Positions 9,969 to 24,615 of a stretch of DNA of 64,000 nt are shown one piece after another (within the stretch, counting starts at the first letter, position 1; each line of letters starts with the position of its first letter). This stretch comes from a virus (taxonomy: Duplodnaviria > Caudoviricetes), in IMG/VR virus record IMGVR_UViG_3300014208_000024, positions 1 to 64,000 of that record. One strand, 5' to 3'. Under the pieces are notes generated by a model. It did no database searches. It had not been told where the DNA came from and saw only the letters and a program-made list of their open reading frames with translations. The position numbers and the translations under genes are program-made.

Positions 9969-11396
9969 TTAACGATTTTTTTCTTTTAATTCTCTGGGCG
10001 CATTTCTTTCTTGATTTTTTCTTTTTTCTTCTTTACGCTCTTTAAATGTTGGTCCAGAATTTTTGTCTTTTATGTTTAAAATTGGAATTAAACGATCAAT
10101 AACATTGGCCGTTGGTTCATTTAATCTTTCTATTGTTTCAGAATCTTTATAAGCCCCTTTACATTCATCAAGAGTACCTTTACAAACTGATGTTGAAAAA
10201 ATTCCCTCCATTTCTTTTTTAAAATATTCTAAATCAAGTTTTTCTTTTGCCATAGAACGACTCATTTTTCTTCCAGCGCCATGACCACAACTATAATTAA
10301 ATTCTGGATTTGATTTTCCTTCACATATTAATGATCCATCTTTCATATTAAGTGCTACAATCATTTTTTCTCCAACGTATGAGCGTATGGCACCTTTGCG
10401 AATAATAAAGTCTTTAAAATCGATATAATTGTGTACTGTTTCAATAATTTCGATTGGTTTAATGCTTCCTAAAATAAGACATGATGTGTTTAACATCATT
10501 TTTCTATTAAATTCTGCATATTTTTGAGCAACTACCATATCAAGCAAATATTCAAAAGCATTTTCACCTTCCAGGAACTCCATGCCATTAATGTTAAAAT
10601 CAAAATCAAGTCCAAGTTCTTTTTTTGCAGATTCCGTTAGCTGTGGAATTGTAGTTTTATCTTTGGTGTTTTTATTTATAAATTCAATTTTTTCCTTTAA
10701 CTCCACATTTCTTTTATCACTTAAAAGTTTTTTTGCTTTATTTTGATGATAGTCACAAATACATTTACCAAAATTTCTAGATCCAGAGTGGATAGAAATC
10801 CATATGTCTTCCGTTTTTTCAGAAACTCCTAACTCGTAATAATGATTTCCTGATCCGAGTGAATTTATACTTAATTCAATGTGTTTTTGCTTCGCTTTAA
10901 TTTTACTGCACAATTCGCCAAAGCTCCTATAATCAAATTTTTTAAATTCATAATTTGTTTTAAATTTGTTGTTATAAGCTCTCGTAAAAATCAACATTTC
11001 ATTATTAAGTTCATCCCAAGGAAAATGTTTTCCAAATAAAAACTTTTCATTATTATTAATTTTAAATCCATTTTCATTAGCATTAATACCCATTGGAATA
11101 CTTTCTCTTATCTCTTTGTCAAATTTTTCAAAAGTCATATTTAACTTTTTTCCAATGTTTGCACATAAAATTCCGCATGAAATATCGACTCCGATTGTAT
11201 TGGGAATCAAATATTTACCAAGTGGCATTGTGAACCCAACAACAGAACCTTTTCCAGCATGAGCATCTACTTGCAATACAACATTGTTATCAAATGCAAT
11301 ATGATTTATCATATTGTTAACTTGATTAATACATTGTTCTTCAATTTCATCATTAGTAATTAATGCTCTTGTAAACTTTCCTTTTATTGTGTACAT
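9969..11396 (-). CDS. rtcB: RtcB RNA 3'-phosphate/5'-OH ligase
   Basis: DAHAG, GVDISCG, LGSGNHY, HSGSR, HNY, RKGA, HGAGR motifs. Confidence 0.95.
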   Translation of the reverse strand: MYTIKGKFTRALITNDEIEEQCINQVNNMINHIAFDNNVVLQVDAHAGKGSVVGFTMPLGKYLIPNTIGVDISCGILCANIGKKLNMTFEKFDKEIRESIPMGINANENGFKINNNEKFLFGKHFPWDELNNEMLIFTRAYNNKFKTNYEFKKFDYRSFGELCSKIKAKQKHIELSINSLGSGNHYYELGVSEKTEDIWISIHSGSRNFGKCICDYHQNKAKKLLSDKRNVELKEKIEFINKNTKDKTTIPQLTESAKKELGLDFDFNINGMEFLEGENAFEYLLDMVVAQKYAEFNRKMMLNTSCLILGSIKPIEIIETVHNYIDFKDFIIRKGAIRSYVGEKMIVALNMKDGSLICEGKSNPEFNYSCGHGAGRKMSRSMAKEKLDLEYFKKEMEGIFSTSVCKGTLDECKGAYKDSETIERLNEPTANVIDRLIPILNIKDKNSGPTFKERKEEKRKNQERNAPRELKEKNR

Positions 11397-21667: not shown

Positions 21668-22315
21668 TCAAATCAAAGACAAATCTCCATTAAGCTCTTT
21701 TTTAACAGCTTCGTCTCCGAATTTCCCTTTAATTCTATCAAGCCAAATTTGAGTTTTCAACTTAACCATCCAAACTATATCATTACCTTTGGTTTTTCTT
21801 ATTCCTTTAGCCATGATACCTTCTTGAACATCAAATTTACCAATTTTTACATCATTTACGAGCTCTTTATTAAGATTGCCTTGATACAGCACCCTTGGAA
21901 TTCCAAGATGCTCAAAATTGTCTACAAACTCTTTTGGGGGAACCCACCCTTTTTGAAACAAGTTTACATCAAAAAGAATTATATCCATAATATCTCCTTC
22001 TTGATGGAACCCAGCAAAAGAGTTGGGACCATAATATTCAGAGAATACTACAAAATTTCTAATGTTTCTATAACTCTTGTCATCGATAAATACTTTGGCA
22101 AGTCCTTCGCCGTACTTATTTAAAAACAAAGTTACCGCAGAGCCAAACTGTTCATGTTTTTCATCAATCATGTTGTTTCTGGTACCAAATTTATACCAAC
22201 CACGTTTTTTGGTAAACTCACATCTAATGTTGCTTCCATCTAGTTTTTCGAAGCCCCATACTGGTGCACCTAATATACCTTTATTCCAATATTCTATATG
22301 TGGATAATGTTTCAT
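21668..22315 (-). CDS. Rnl2-like ATP-dependent RNA ligase
   Basis: EKLDGSN (motif I), FSEYYG, LFDV, EGIMAK, VKLK; start re-chosen at MKHYPHI. Confidence 0.75.
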   Translation of the reverse strand: MKHYPHIEYWNKGILGAPVWGFEKLDGSNIRCEFTKKRGWYKFGTRNNMIDEKHEQFGSAVTLFLNKYGEGLAKVFIDDKSYRNIRNFVVFSEYYGPNSFAGFHQEGDIMDIILFDVNLFQKGWVPPKEFVDNFEHLGIPRVLYQGNLNKELVNDVKIGKFDVQEGIMAKGIRKTKGNDIVWMVKLKTQIWLDRIKGKFGDEAVKKELNGDLSLI

Positions 22316-22497
22316 AATACAAAATTTTAAAATTAATACTGATTTTGTCGTCTGGAAAACCCAGACAAATAGATGCTGTATAATGACAATGTATGCCAAA
22401 ATTTAGCAAATAGCATGTTTTTATCTGGAGAATCCAGATAACTTATGCTTTATGAAAAGAATCTAACAAATAGACGCATTGTAATCTTTATAATTTG

Positions 22498-22659: not shown

Positions 22660-23526
22660 TTATTTATTTAATTCTTTTTCATAATATTTTATCCATTTTC
22701 TTATTGCATTATCTGATACACCATATTTTATTCCAACTGCACGATAATTTGTTTCTTTTATTTCTTTCAAAAGTTGTTCATGTGAAGGACGATCTACTTT
22801 TCGTTGATTTATTTTTGCACATTCATCACATGTTTTACTCCTGTTTTGTATTTCCTTATTACATTTTGGACAATAATGTTTTTTATGTATTCTTTTGTTT
22901 TTTATTTTTTTAATTATATCTTTTTCTTTAAATTTCAATCCATGTTCAGACATTAATTTGTATATTGCTCCATGATTATTGCTTTTTGTACTCATTCCAC
23001 ATTTTTTCAATACTTCTCTTACACTATTAGATTCTTTTATAATTTTTATTGCCAACTGTTTATCAAGGTGGTTTTTTGTTTTTTTCTTCCCCTTTTCCTC
23101 TATTGCATGACAATTTGGACATAAAACAATTAAGTTTTCCAATTTGTTGTTTTCACTGTTCCCGTCTTTATGATGTAATTCTATAGGAATTTCATTTTTT
23201 TCCCATTCTGTTCTATTACATTGATAACATTTGTGTTCAAAATACCCTTCTTCAATTAATCTCTTTTTTAAAGAATCAGATTTTATAAACAATTCGTTAT
23301 TTAAATATTTAGAAATAGGTGTTTTGTAACCCAAAACCTTTCCTTTACTCCAAGAACTTCCATAAAAATGATTAATATTAATGTTAAATTCTTTGATTTT
23401 ATTCTTTAATGACCTATAATTTCCGCCTGCTGGAATTATTCCAAAATTATTCATTACTTCCCTTAATGAAAAAGAACTATTGACTACATTTTCCAAATCT
23501 TCTTTTTTTATTTTTTTTATTTTCAT
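22660..23526 (-). CDS. HNH homing endonuclease inside tRNA array
   Basis: CYQC...ELHHKDGNSENNKLENLIVLCPNCH. Confidence 0.9.
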   Translation of the reverse strand: MKIKKIKKEDLENVVNSSFSLREVMNNFGIIPAGGNYRSLKNKIKEFNININHFYGSSWSKGKVLGYKTPISKYLNNELFIKSDSLKKRLIEEGYFEHKCYQCNRTEWEKNEIPIELHHKDGNSENNKLENLIVLCPNCHAIEEKGKKKTKNHLDKQLAIKIIKESNSVREVLKKCGMSTKSNNHGAIYKLMSEHGLKFKEKDIIKKIKNKRIHKKHYCPKCNKEIQNRSKTCDECAKINQRKVDRPSHEQLLKEIKETNYRAVGIKYGVSDNAIRKWIKYYEKELNK

Positions 23527-23626
23527 ATATTTTTTTATTTATAAATAGCACAAAAAATTAAAACGCAAAAGAAACACTTGAAATGCCTTTACCTTTTTTA
23601 ATTTAATTATTCAAAGAACCTTTTTG

Positions 23627-23713
23627 TAGCTCAGATCGGAGTCGAACCGACACGGATTTTACAACCCGATGGATTTTAAGTCCATTGCGTATAACCAGTT
23701 TCGCCACTGAGCC
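23627..23713 (-). tRNA. tRNA-Leu(TAA)
   Basis: GGCTCAG/CTGAGCT, ATGGA-CTTAAAA-TCCAT, long V arm. Confidence 0.92.
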
Positions 23714-23719
23714 ATTTTG

Positions 23720-23802
23720 TGCGGGTGAAGGGATTCGAACCCCCACGTCTTTCGACGCTACATCCTAAGTGTAGTGCGTATAACCAGTTTCGCCACACCC
23801 GC
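23720..23802 (-). tRNA. tRNA-Leu(TAG)
   Basis: GCGGGTG/CACCCGC, CTACA-CTTAGGA-TGTAG. Confidence 0.93.
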
Positions 23803-23807
23803 ATTTG

Positions 23808-23891
23808 AGCACATGGAGGGATTTGAACCCCCGACTCTTTCGAGATAACAGTTTTGCAGACTGATGGCTTAGACCACTCACCCACATGTGC
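23808..23891 (-). tRNA. tRNA-Cys(GCA) with long variable arm
   Basis: GCACATG/CATGTGC, U73, loop CTGCAAA, CTC-GAAA-GAG V arm. Confidence 0.82.
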
Positions 23892-23897
23892 ATTTTG

Positions 23898-23984
23898 TAT
23901 CCCCACTCAGATTCGAACTGAGAACGTTTCCATGTATTCCACAGGGTTTAAGCCTGCAAGCTTTTCCAATTTGCTCATGGGGAC
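23898..23984 (-). tRNA. tRNA-Leu(TAA)
   Basis: GTCCCCA/TGGGGAT, GCAGG-CTTAAAC-CCTGT. Confidence 0.85.
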
Positions 23985-23990
23985 ATTTAA

Positions 23991-24131
23991 AATTTAGGGG
24001 AAAAGCAAAAAGAGTGTTGAAGATTTCTCTTCGGAGGATTTGAACCTCATTCCCTTTCGGGAGATTGATTTTTGGTCAATTGCGTAAACCAGTTTCTCCA
24101 CGATGTAACTCTTTTAATGGCCACCTAAATT
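23991..24131 (-). ncRNA. Cassette A: permuted Leu-like tRNA body with acceptor stem capped by a short purine loop
   Basis: AATTTAGG/CCTAAATT and AAAAGAGT/ACTCTTTT flank stems, TGGCCA, TACATC^G; cargo 24019-24101. Confidence 0.75.
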
Positions 24132-24160
24132 AAATTTTCAATATTTTAAAGAACATATAA

Positions 24161-24200
24161 AAACAAAAACGGGAGCAAGTTTTTTTAACTGCTCCCGTTT
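24161..24200 (-). terminator. Attenuator terminator of the Leu/Cys tRNA array
   Basis: AAACGGGAGCA...TGCTCCCGTTTTT; leader TGCTCCC (24257-24263) can pair with GGGAGCA. Confidence 0.82.
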
Positions 24201-24224
24201 CTGGTTTATTGGTTTATCTCGCAT

Positions 24225-24305
24225 TTATGCAAAATCATTCCAGGTCAACTTGCTTTGGGAGCAATTTGATAGTAAGAGGCATAAACACAAAGATAAAGTT
24301 TTCAT
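24225..24305 (-). CDS. Leader peptide MKTLSLCLCLLLSNCSQSKLTWNDFA
   Basis: 7 Leu and 3 Cys in 26 aa, upstream of Leu and Cys tRNAs. Confidence 0.82.
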   Translation of the reverse strand: MKTLSLCLCLLLSNCSQSKLTWNDFA

Positions 24306-24344
24306 AATTTCAGTTTATATTAAATAGTCTAATTTTTCTAATTT

Positions 24345-24371
24345 CTACGCAAAGATATAAAAAAAGTTACA
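24345..24371 (-). promoter_or_regulatory. TGTAAC-N16-CGTAG promoter with overlapping TATCTTTG
   Basis: Recurring motif. Confidence 0.7.
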
Positions 24372-24393
24372 TTAAAAACAAGTTTTTTCCTAA

Positions 24394-24615
24394 TTATTTT
24401 TTATCTTGCTGATTTTCAATACTCTTTTTTTCTATTCCTTTTATTAATTTCTTAATTCTTACAATTTGTCTTCTCCAATTTCCTTTTTGTTCATGAGTAT
24501 AAACAGAAGAAAAGTATATAAAAGCCGCTAAATCTTTTTGATTTTCAATTAAAGATTCAATTCCTCTTTTTTTACAAAAATCTTCCCAAGATTCTCTTTT
24601 GTTTTCTTTAATCAT
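24394..24615 (-). CDS. Hypothetical protein
   Basis: Short ORF. Confidence 0.55.
   Translation of the reverse strand: MIKENKRESWEDFCKKRGIESLIENQKDLAAFIYFSSVYTHEQKGNWRRQIVRIKKLIKGIEKKSIENQQDKK

What the first reader, a model, noticed from the sequence alone, without database searches (positions are those of the whole stretch)
23991..24131. Cassette whose product would be a closed tRNA-like circle with no CCA end
The cargo is a Leu-type body (D-arm, anticodon loop CCAAAAA, CCC-GAAA-GGG V arm, T-arm). It is followed by CGAAGA-GAAA-TCTTC, so the acceptor helix is capped by a tetraloop instead of a 16-nt linker. Joining TCTTC|G would complete the helix. Such a circle could not be charged and may be a stable decoy for tRNA-targeting defence nucleases or synthetases.
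Basis: inference. Interest (0 to 1): 0.66.

Follow-up and report, generated by a model that had tools for sequence, protein, structure and literature searches.

The report
Capped tRNA-Leu mimic on Y-RNA handle
A giant phage opens its leucine/cysteine tRNA operon with a 141-base RNA that copies the body of a leucine tRNA. Its amino-acid end is sealed by a small loop, and it is clamped by the 'handle' found on RNAs beside the phage's Ro60 gene, so it is most likely a Y-RNA-type tRNA mimic, not a closed circle.

Summary
The circle reading is not supported.

**What is there.** Window 24131-23991 (- strand) encodes a 141-nt RNA.
- A two-helix handle: 8-bp outer stem, U bulge, GG/CC, 8-bp inner stem, and an invariant 7-nt motif.
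- Inside it, a body derived from tRNA-Leu(UAA), in the order D arm, anticodon arm, long V arm, T arm.
- A 5-bp hairpin with a GAAA loop stands where the acceptor stem should be.

**Comparative evidence.** Six orthologues (a related 229-kb phage and five metagenome contigs) lie at the same place: after a terminator and a 21-nt motif, a few bases before tRNA-Leu.
- Every helix is kept through compensatory changes: 90% of cells paired against 37-53% when slid, and 20 pairs changed on both sides (0/500 shuffles).
- The cap has five different stem sequences.
- A normal acceptor helix is not conserved and no CCA is encoded.

**Link to Ro60.** The same handle marks about ten RNAs of this phage, one about 90 nt upstream of its Ro60 (TROVE) gene. 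Two other phages show the same arrangement.

**Against a circle.** No splicing endonuclease, BHB motif or ribozyme was found.

**Best reading.** It is a linear, unchargeable Y-RNA-type tRNA mimic.

Earlier follow-ups of this scan already described the handle family in this genome. This topology and its orthologues are new here.

The parts
24134..24154 (-). Conserved 21-nt motif ending 2-3 nt before the RNA. It is a candidate promoter or processing signal that sets the 5' end.
   Evidence: Five copies in the window, all on the - strand, against 0.12 expected. Four of them abut handle RNAs. The motif is present in the orthologues with upstream sequence and before the TROVE-adjacent handle RNA.
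24124..24131 (-). Handle, outer stem, 5' strand
   Evidence: Perfect 8-bp inverted repeat with 23991-23998 (I18). It covaries among orthologues (helix 1, 98% paired) and among the handle RNAs listed.
24116..24123 (-). Handle core, 5' side: a bulged U, GG (pairs with CC at 23999-24000) and a 5-nt internal loop. This is the candidate Ro60-contact strand.
   Evidence: U, GG and the loop A are invariant in all handle RNAs. The stem-bulge-stem layout matches that of published Y RNAs (PMC4201824, PMC12135203).
24108..24115 (-). Handle, inner stem, 5' strand
   Evidence: Perfect 8-bp repeat with 24008-24015 (I19). It covaries (helix 2).
24101..24107 (-). Invariant handle motif UAC(A/U)UCG. Its last G can pair with C 24033 at the foot of the capped arm.
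   Evidence: The same 7-mer lies at the same register in every handle RNA of G000, G001, G002 and LR745206.1.
24082..24100 (-). U8, G9 and the D arm (3-bp stem with one A.G mismatch in this copy; loop with the GG of the tRNA elbow)
   Evidence: The D stem shows compensatory changes at 2 of 3 pairs (helix 3). The loop bases are invariant.
24064..24080 (-). Anticodon arm: 5-bp stem, 7-nt loop CCAAAAA (C33, no Leu anticodon)
   Evidence: The stem is 97% paired, with 3 pairs changed on both sides (helix 4). The loop varies among orthologues.
24049..24063 (-). Long variable arm (4 bp, GAAA loop), the class II (Leu-type) mark
   Evidence: helix 5. Neighbouring tRNAs have similar arms.
24034..24048 (-). 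T arm with the canonical loop
   Evidence: 100% paired, with 2 pairs changed on both sides. The loop is nearly invariant (helix 6).
24019..24033 (-). C plus the capped hairpin GAAGA-GAAA-UCUUC that replaces the acceptor stem
   Evidence: A hairpin with a tetraloop is present in 7 of 7 orthologues, with five different stem sequences and loops GAAA, GAAG, GCAA and GUAA. The rival normal acceptor pairing holds in only 29 of 49 cells.
24008..24018 (-). 3-nt junction and the inner stem 3' strand
23991..24007 (-). Handle 3' side: 7-nt U-rich loop, CC, and the outer stem 3' strand
23897..23984 (-). tRNA-Leu(UAA), which starts 6 nt after the RNA. Its RNase P cut would set the 3' end of the mimic.
   Evidence: A tRNA-Leu(UAA) also follows each of the six orthologues.
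24160..24207 (-). Upstream terminator hairpin of the leader region (context, not part of the RNA)
   Evidence: (I2). It is conserved in the orthologues whose upstream sequence is held.

Best explanation
It is a gene for a linear small RNA of the Ro60/Y-RNA type.

**Architecture.**
- The two ends pair into a stem-bulge-stem handle. This handle is the common badge of about ten RNAs in this phage and is most likely the docking site of the phage's Ro60 (TROVE) ring protein.
- The handle carries a tRNA-Leu(UAA)-derived body that keeps the tRNA elbow, the long variable arm and a full anticodon arm.
- The acceptor arm is a tetraloop-capped hairpin. The handle leaves the body between positions 7 and 8.

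**Expression.** It is transcribed as the first product of the Leu/Cys tRNA operon. It is freed at its 3' side when RNase P cuts the next tRNA.

**Function.** It has neither a free acceptor end nor CCA, so it cannot be charged or decode. It probably presents a tRNA-shaped surface to a tRNA-binding partner while held on Ro60, or gates Ro60 itself.

**Shown:** the anatomy, its conservation and covariation, the shared handle, and the handle RNAs that lie next to Ro60 genes.

**Inferred:** Ro60 binding, linearity, the exact ends and the role of the tRNA-like part.
For: - Seven orthologues keep all helices: 90.0% of cells paired against 36.7-52.9% when slid, 20 of 37 pairs changed on both sides, and 0 of 500 shuffles as good. 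RNAalifold finds the handle and the D, anticodon, V and T helices on its own.
- The cap hairpin is kept with five stem sequences.
- The elbow bases (U8, the D-loop GG, the T loop) are invariant.
- The handle pattern gives 9 hits in the 372-kb genome, all on one strand, with 0 in the control. In the 23 handle RNAs tabulated, both helices pair despite different sequences.
- One handle RNA ends about 90 nt upstream of the TROVE gene start.
- The same holds in relative G001, with two copies upstream of its TROVE gene, and in GenBank huge phage LR745206.1, whose TROVE protein is 49% identical.
- The TROVE protein matches the solved Thermus phage Ro60 structure 9KOP (E 6e-19) and Xenopus Ro60.
- Published Y RNAs are stem-bulge-stem RNAs encoded beside Ro60, and many carry a tRNA-like module whose acceptor-like arm is a closed stem-loop (PMC4201824; PMC12135203).
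- RtcB, the usual genomic companion of Ro60 and Y RNA, lies in the window.
Against: - No binding data exist.
- This copy lies about 60 kb from the TROVE gene.
- Rfam YrlA (RF02553) hits neither this RNA nor the TROVE-adjacent siblings.
- The published Ro60-contact motif (GNCGAA / CGAA) is absent. The handle has GGCCA here and GGCAA in the siblings.
- The ends of the RNA are not mapped.
- The link between the handle and Ro60 rests on three phage lineages only.
Confidence: 0.6

Rival explanations
1. The handle is cut away and the ends are sealed, for example by the phage RtcB, to give a covalently closed tRNA-shaped circle.
For: - Joining the 3' strand of the hairpin to the invariant G would give a continuous 6-bp arm stacked on the T stem. 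The G and its partner C are present in 7 of 7 orthologues.
- RtcB and an Rnl2-like ligase are encoded nearby.
Against: - No tRNA-splicing endonuclease is encoded in the phage, while the archaeal control genomes were detected.
- There is no bulge-helix-bulge motif at the junctions, by inspection.
- No ribozyme or intron family hits at E up to 10.
- The junction after the hairpin varies from 0 to 3 nt, while the total strand length stays at 21-23 nt.
- The handle is the most conserved part and is shared with RNAs that carry no tRNA.
Confidence: 0.06
2. A cis-acting leader of the tRNA operon without Ro60. The stem-bulge-stem would be a processing stalk (RNase III or RNase E type) or a 5' protective structure, and the tRNA-like body would recruit RNase P or other tRNA-maturing enzymes to the precursor.
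For: - It is always the first element of the operon, a few bases before tRNA-Leu.
- Four of the window's handle RNAs directly follow the same 21-nt motif.
- Phage RNase III sites are also two helices around an internal loop (general knowledge; not tested here).
Against: - Handle RNAs also stand alone upstream of Ro60 genes, with no tRNA after them.
- The unpaired handle bases are invariant, which is more than a double-strand nuclease needs.
- Other handle RNAs lie inside tRNA clusters, not at their head.
Confidence: 0.15
3. A free decoy or sponge, independent of Ro60. It would act on host enzymes that recognise tRNA-Leu or tRNA-Cys: anticodon nucleases, modification enzymes or synthetases.
For: - The tRNA core and a 7-nt anticodon loop are kept.
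- The loops of the orthologues carry AAA, GCA (Cys) or CAA (Leu), close to the operon's own tRNA set.
- Such variation could reflect an arms race.
Against: - Four of seven loops carry AAA, which matches no tRNA of the operon.
- This copy has C33.
- No target nuclease is known, and nothing was tested.
- This model does not explain the conserved handle.
Confidence: 0.12
4. An ordinary decoding tRNA, or a decayed tRNA pseudogene.
For: - ARAGORN calls the orthologues in L072 and L074 as tRNA-Phe(AAA) and tRNA-Cys(GCA).
- Rfam tRNA gives a weak hit of 18.9 bits.
Against: - The would-be acceptor helix pairs in only 2-6 of 7 positions and is not conserved.
- The score is below the Rfam cut-off, and ARAGORN makes no call in the window.
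- No CCA is encoded, and the 3' strand is locked in a conserved hairpin.
- A pseudogene would not keep 20 compensated pairs.
Confidence: 0.04

Closest known systems
YrlA, the tRNA-like Y RNA bound by bacterial and mycobacteriophage Ro60/Rsr (Chen et al. 2014, PMC4201824; Rfam RF02553)
   Same: - A small RNA whose ends form the protein-binding stem.
- The interior mimics tRNA, with D and T arms, elbow bases and a V region.
- The acceptor-like arm is a closed stem-loop, so there is no chargeable end.
- It is encoded with Ro60 and RtcB in the same genome.
   Different: - The order here is D, anticodon, V, T, capped arm. In YrlA it is T, capped arm, D, and the anticodon side leads to the Ro60 stem.
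- Here a complete anticodon arm is present and the handle leaves at the 7/8 junction.
- There is no GNCGAA motif.
- The Rfam model does not hit.
- This copy lies 60 kb from Ro60, at the head of a tRNA operon.
Yrn1 of Deinococcus radiodurans (PMC4201824)
   Same: - The order is D-like loop, then an 'anticodon arm' with a 5-bp stem, then the T arm, as here.
- A two-stranded bulged Ro60-binding helix is formed by the RNA's ends.
   Different: - Yrn1 has a 6-nt loop, no V arm and no separate capped acceptor hairpin.
- There is no sequence similarity.
Yrl1/Yrl2 of Thermus phage phiLo, bound by phage Ro60 (PMC12135203; PDB 9KOP, 9L5Y)
   Same: - Stem-bulge-stem RNAs encoded upstream of a phage Ro60 gene.
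- The phage Ro60 here is a sequence relative of that protein.
   Different: - The phiLo RNAs carry the CGAA motif, and no tRNA-like body is mentioned in the passages read.
- They are not placed in tRNA operons.
Sibling handle RNAs of the same phage (earlier follow-ups e1-5378542 and e1-5378510)
   Same: The handle is identical and in exact register. The cargoes are tRNA-derived.
   Different: - The siblings carry tRNA bodies written back to front, with a 15-17-nt linker closing the acceptor stem (for example 34810-34659).
- One carries a normal-order tRNA with open ends (33733-33605).
- Only this one and its orthologues have the D-first order with a tetraloop cap.
Circularly permuted tRNA genes of Cyanidioschyzon merolae, matured through circular intermediates (from general knowledge; not read here)
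   Same: The idea that flanks pair, are removed, and the ends are joined into a circle.
   Different: - That process needs a bulge-helix-bulge motif and a splicing endonuclease. Neither is found here.
- Those circles are reopened at a linker to give working tRNAs. Here there is no linker.

Membership tests
Canonical tRNA (Rfam RF00005) | Covariance-model score at or above the gathering cut-off (29 bits), or a gene-finder call | tested here: not met
   18.9 bits, E 0.63. ARAGORN makes no call in the window. It does call two orthologues.
Canonical tRNA (Rfam RF00005) | 7-bp acceptor helix made by the 5' and 3' ends, with a free 3' end for CCA | tested here: not met
   The would-be helix pairs in 2-6 of 7 positions across the orthologues (29 of 49 cells), and no CCA follows. 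The 3' strand sits in a conserved hairpin.
Canonical tRNA (Rfam RF00005) | Elbow-forming D-loop and T-loop bases, U8, and a 7-nt anticodon loop with U33 | tested here: inconclusive
   U8, the D-loop GG and the T loop are invariant, and the loop has 7 nt in all orthologues. This copy has C33.
YrlA (Rfam RF02553) | Match to the family covariance model | tested here: not met
   No RF02553 hit at E up to 10 on 23500-24600, and none at E up to 1 on the TROVE-adjacent handle RNAs.
YrlA (Rfam RF02553) | Encoded within about 4 kb of a Ro60/TROVE gene on the same strand (PMC4201824) | tested here: not met
   This copy lies about 60 kb from the TROVE gene (83831-84688). A sibling with the same handle meets the criterion, as do siblings in G001 and LR745206.1.
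YrlA (Rfam RF02553) | GNCGAAN0-1G motif near the 5' end | tested here: not met
   The handle has GGCCA here and GGCAA in the siblings.
YrlA (Rfam RF02553) | tRNA-like module with T arm, D arm and a closed acceptor-like stem-loop | tested here: met
   The order of the arms differs from YrlA.
Y RNA in the functional sense | Bound by Ro60 through the terminal bulged helix | not testable with these tools
   Only the stem-bulge-stem layout, and genomic linkage of the handle to TROVE genes in three phages.
Handle RNA family of this phage group (undescribed in print, as far as searched) | 5' side: outer stem, bulged U, GG, a 5-nt loop, an 8-bp inner stem and the invariant 7-mer. 3' side: inner strand, a U-rich loop of about 7 nt, CC and the outer strand. 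| tested here: met
   Exact register over the 29-nt 5' half. Outer stem 6 of 6 scored pairs (8 of 8 in full) and inner stem 8 of 8 pairs.
Permuted or spliced tRNA matured through a circle | Bulge-helix-bulge junction and a splicing endonuclease, or a self-splicing or self-cleaving flank | tested here: not met
   PF01974 is absent from the complete 372-kb record while the controls were detected. No ribozyme or intron family hits. No 3-4-3 motif is seen in the sequence.

The most novel reading that the evidence does not exclude
The handle is a recognition platform for a cut-and-seal reaction. A still unknown nuclease plus the phage RtcB would release a covalently closed, exonuclease-proof tRNA-Leu look-alike. 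This circle would soak up host tRNA-targeting defence nucleases whenever the Leu/Cys operon is switched on.
Probability: 0.06. Interest if true: 0.85.

Novelty: new variant of a known kind. Interest (0 to 1): 0.5.

Why it matters
The role of the tRNA-like part of bacterial Y RNAs is still unknown. This RNA is a very complete mimic: elbow, class II variable arm and a full anticodon arm. It is made deliberately unchargeable and is wired to the head of the matching tRNA operon in a phage that also encodes Ro60, RtcB and an Rnl2-like ligase.

If Ro60 binding is confirmed, three things follow.
- Phage Ro60 particles would come in amino-acid-specific versions tied to tRNA supply or repair.
- This would give a tractable system for asking what Y-RNA tRNA mimicry is for.
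- Gene finders can mis-call such RNAs as tRNA-Phe or tRNA-Cys, which matters for annotation.

Tried and rejected
- **Ordinary tRNA or pseudogene.** Rejected.
- **Close relatives in cultured phages.** blastn of 23880-24400 found only a 31-nt tRNA-like match in Lak phages.
- **Exact-word scan of IMG/VR.** It found nothing.
- **Neighbouring 417-aa protein.** It has no relatives in IMG/VR.
- **5'-handle pattern in IMG/VR.** Of the 35 hits, most were GC-rich coding chance matches. Only two records were real. G003 was a chance hit: no 3' half and no TROVE gene.
- **The same pattern over one genome per prokaryote species.** All 18 hits were coding-sequence chance matches, so there are no cellular copies.
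- **Rfam YrlA.** No hit anywhere.
- **Sigma-70 promoter scan.** Nothing useful, and the terminator scan missed the long-looped hairpin.
- **MAFFT alignment A3.** It misregisters the cap hairpin in two rows, so RNAalifold missed it. I read it per sequence instead.
- **Covariance model.** I did not build one. The handle half-sites align without gaps, so it seemed unnecessary.

Full report
**Setting.** The window is the first 64 kb of a complete 372,283-bp IMG/VR phage record. It holds 35 or more tRNA genes, all on the - strand, a GOLLD RNA and an SRP-like RNA. The finding lies on the - strand between a terminator hairpin (24207-24160) and the tRNA run Leu(UAA)-Cys-Leu(UAG)-Leu(UAA) at 23984-23626.

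**Observation.** Read on the - strand, 24131-23991 contains the following parts.
- An 8-bp outer helix, a bulged U, GG paired with CC, and a 5-nt loop.
- An 8-bp inner helix and the 7-mer UACAUCG.
- U8-G9, a D arm, a perfect 5-bp anticodon stem with the loop CCAAAAA, and a 4-bp V arm with a GAAA loop.
- A T arm with the canonical loop, one C, the hairpin GAAGA-GAAA-UCUUC, and 3 junction bases.
- The 3' strands of the two outer helices.

RNAfold returns this architecture (-36.1 kcal/mol, z = -3.1). The body is closest to the operon's own tRNA-Leu(UAA), about 34 of 39 bases identical over the D and anticodon arms. As a tRNA it fails: Rfam gives 18.9 bits against a cut-off of 29, and ARAGORN makes no call.

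**The flanks are a shared handle, not a private cassette.** The 29-nt 5' half and the 3' half occur in exact register on eight further RNAs in the window.
- A pattern for the 5' half gives 9 hits in the whole genome, all on the - strand, with none in the reversed control.
- In the 23 family members tabulated from four phage or metagenome sources, the outer helix pairs in 5-6 of 6 positions and the inner helix mostly in 6-8 of 8. The helix sequences differ, while the unpaired bases stay fixed.
- Most siblings carry tRNA bodies written back to front, with a 15-17-nt linker closing the acceptor stem. One carries a normal-order tRNA. Some carry no tRNA at all.

**Link to Ro60.**
- The genome encodes a 501-aa TROVE protein (Pfam E 1.6e-19). 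It is related to the solved Ro60 of Thermus phage phiLo (E 6e-19) and to Xenopus Ro60.
- A handle RNA, preceded by a variant of the same 21-nt motif, ends about 90 nt upstream of that gene's start.
- Relative G001 (228,886 bp) has two handle RNAs just upstream of its TROVE gene.
- GenBank huge phage LR745206.1, whose TROVE protein is 49% identical, has two handle RNAs directly upstream. They are a GUAG variant with the 7-mer kept. A third copy elsewhere carries a permuted tRNA cargo.
- This matches the published criterion for Y RNAs: encoded beside Ro60, with stem-bulge-stem ends and often a tRNA-like interior whose acceptor-like arm is a closed stem-loop (PMC4201824; PMC12135203).
- RtcB, which travels with Ro60 and Y RNAs in bacteria, lies at 10068-11324. 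An Rnl2-like ligase lies at 21668-22399.

**Orthologues.** G001 holds the same leader, terminator, motif and RNA in front of Leu(UAA)-Cys-Leu(UAG), 81% identical over the leader and the 5' half of the RNA. A pattern joining the handle to the D arm found five more copies on metagenome contigs. Each lies before a tRNA-Leu(UAA), and the four contigs that extend upstream show the same terminator and motif. One genome per prokaryote species gave none.

On the 7-sequence alignment A3 the proposed structure fares as follows.
- It pairs in 90.0% of cells, against 36.7-52.9% when the partners are slid.
- 20 of 37 pairs show changes on both sides. No shuffle of 500 reaches the observed values.
- RNAalifold predicts the handle and the D, anticodon, V and T helices independently.
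- U8, the D-loop GG and the T loop are invariant, so the tRNA elbow is under selection.

**The capped arm.**
- MAFFT misregisters it in two rows. Taken per sequence, all seven have a tetraloop hairpin after the T stem.
- The stems are GAAGA/UCUUC (three copies), GAGAC/GUCUC, GACCC/GGGUU, GUCCC/GGGAU, and CCC/GGG flanked by a U.U mismatch.
- The loops are GAAA, GAAG, GCAA and GUAA.
- The rival pairing of the handle 7-mer with the strand after the T stem, which would make a normal acceptor helix, holds in only 2-6 of 7 positions. No CCA follows.
- Only its first pair is universal: the 7-mer's G with the C after the T stem.
- The stretch from the T stem to the inner handle helix stays at 21-23 nt, while the hairpin shifts by up to 3 nt within it. 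I read this as a constraint on the intact, handle-attached RNA. This is an inference.

**Circle or linear?**
- Nothing in the sequence points to excision.
- There is no bulge-helix-bulge motif.
- No tRNA-splicing endonuclease is encoded in a 100% complete record, while the archaeal controls were detected.
- No ribozyme or intron family hits at E up to 10.
- The handle is the most conserved and most widely shared part.
- RtcB could seal suitable ends, so the circle is not excluded. It needs an unknown nuclease and has no positive support. I put it at about 6%.

**Function.**
- That the RNA cannot be charged follows from the anatomy.
- The anticodon loop always has 7 nt, but its sequence varies: AAA in four copies, GCA in one and CAA in two. 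It is therefore not used for decoding.
- The variation neither supports nor excludes a decoy role.
- The conserved 21-nt motif sits between that terminator and the RNA. It may itself be a promoter or a processing site, and that needs mapping.

**Comparison and novelty.**
- The RNA works like a Y RNA of the YrlA/Yrn1 kind. It is not a member of Rfam YrlA: there is no model hit, no GNCGAA motif, and the order of the arms differs.
- Its topology combines Yrn1's D-anticodon-T order with YrlA's closed acceptor arm. The handle leaves at the 7/8 junction. I found no description of this in the papers searched.
- Earlier follow-ups of this scan had already reported the handle family in this genome (e1-5378542, e1-5378510) and similar RNAs on other DNA.
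- New here are this D-first, tetraloop-capped form, its six orthologues with covariation, and the test against the circle model.

Noticed in passing
window 23807-23891 (-): The operon's tRNA-Cys(GCA) is 85 nt long, with a long variable arm and U73, so it has the shape of a class II tRNA. The orthologous operons have 83-84-nt versions in L074 and L082, but normal 72-73-nt tRNA-Cys in G001, L072 and L081.
   Followed up: partly
window 24154-24134, 33756-33736, 34831-34811, 35153-35133, 42275-42255 (-): A 21-nt motif occurs five times against 0.12 expected. Four copies end 2-3 nt before a handle RNA, and a variant precedes the TROVE-adjacent handle RNA. It lies between the leader-peptide terminator and the RNA. 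If it is a promoter, the attenuator reading of the upstream region needs re-checking.
   Followed up: partly
window 33733-33605 (-): A handle RNA encloses a normal-order tRNA with anticodon UUA (ARAGORN 'tRNA-Stop' at 33634-33706; Rfam 54.7 bits). The bases after its acceptor stem may include an encoded CCA, unlike the Leu tRNAs inspected in this operon.
   Followed up: no
L072:62-149 and L074:599-685: ARAGORN annotates two orthologues of the mimic as tRNA-Phe(AAA) and tRNA-Cys(GCA). Automatic annotation can therefore count these unchargeable RNAs as tRNAs.
   Followed up: yes
L094-L097 (GenBank LR745206.1, 634,780 bp): A huge phage with a TROVE protein 49% identical carries handle RNAs of a GUAG variant. 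Two lie directly upstream of the TROVE gene, and one near 369.0 kb carries a permuted tRNA cargo between tRNA genes.
   Followed up: partly
window 41517-41900 (-) and 42370-42453 (-): A GOLLD RNA (226.6 bits) and a borderline bacterial SRP RNA match (42.3 bits against a cut-off of 40) lie side by side in the phage.
   Followed up: no
L072 against G001/L081 and the window group: The orthologue in L072 has the handle, D arm and anticodon arm of the G001 group, but the T arm and cap hairpin of the window group. This looks like a recombinant between the two lineages.
   Followed up: no
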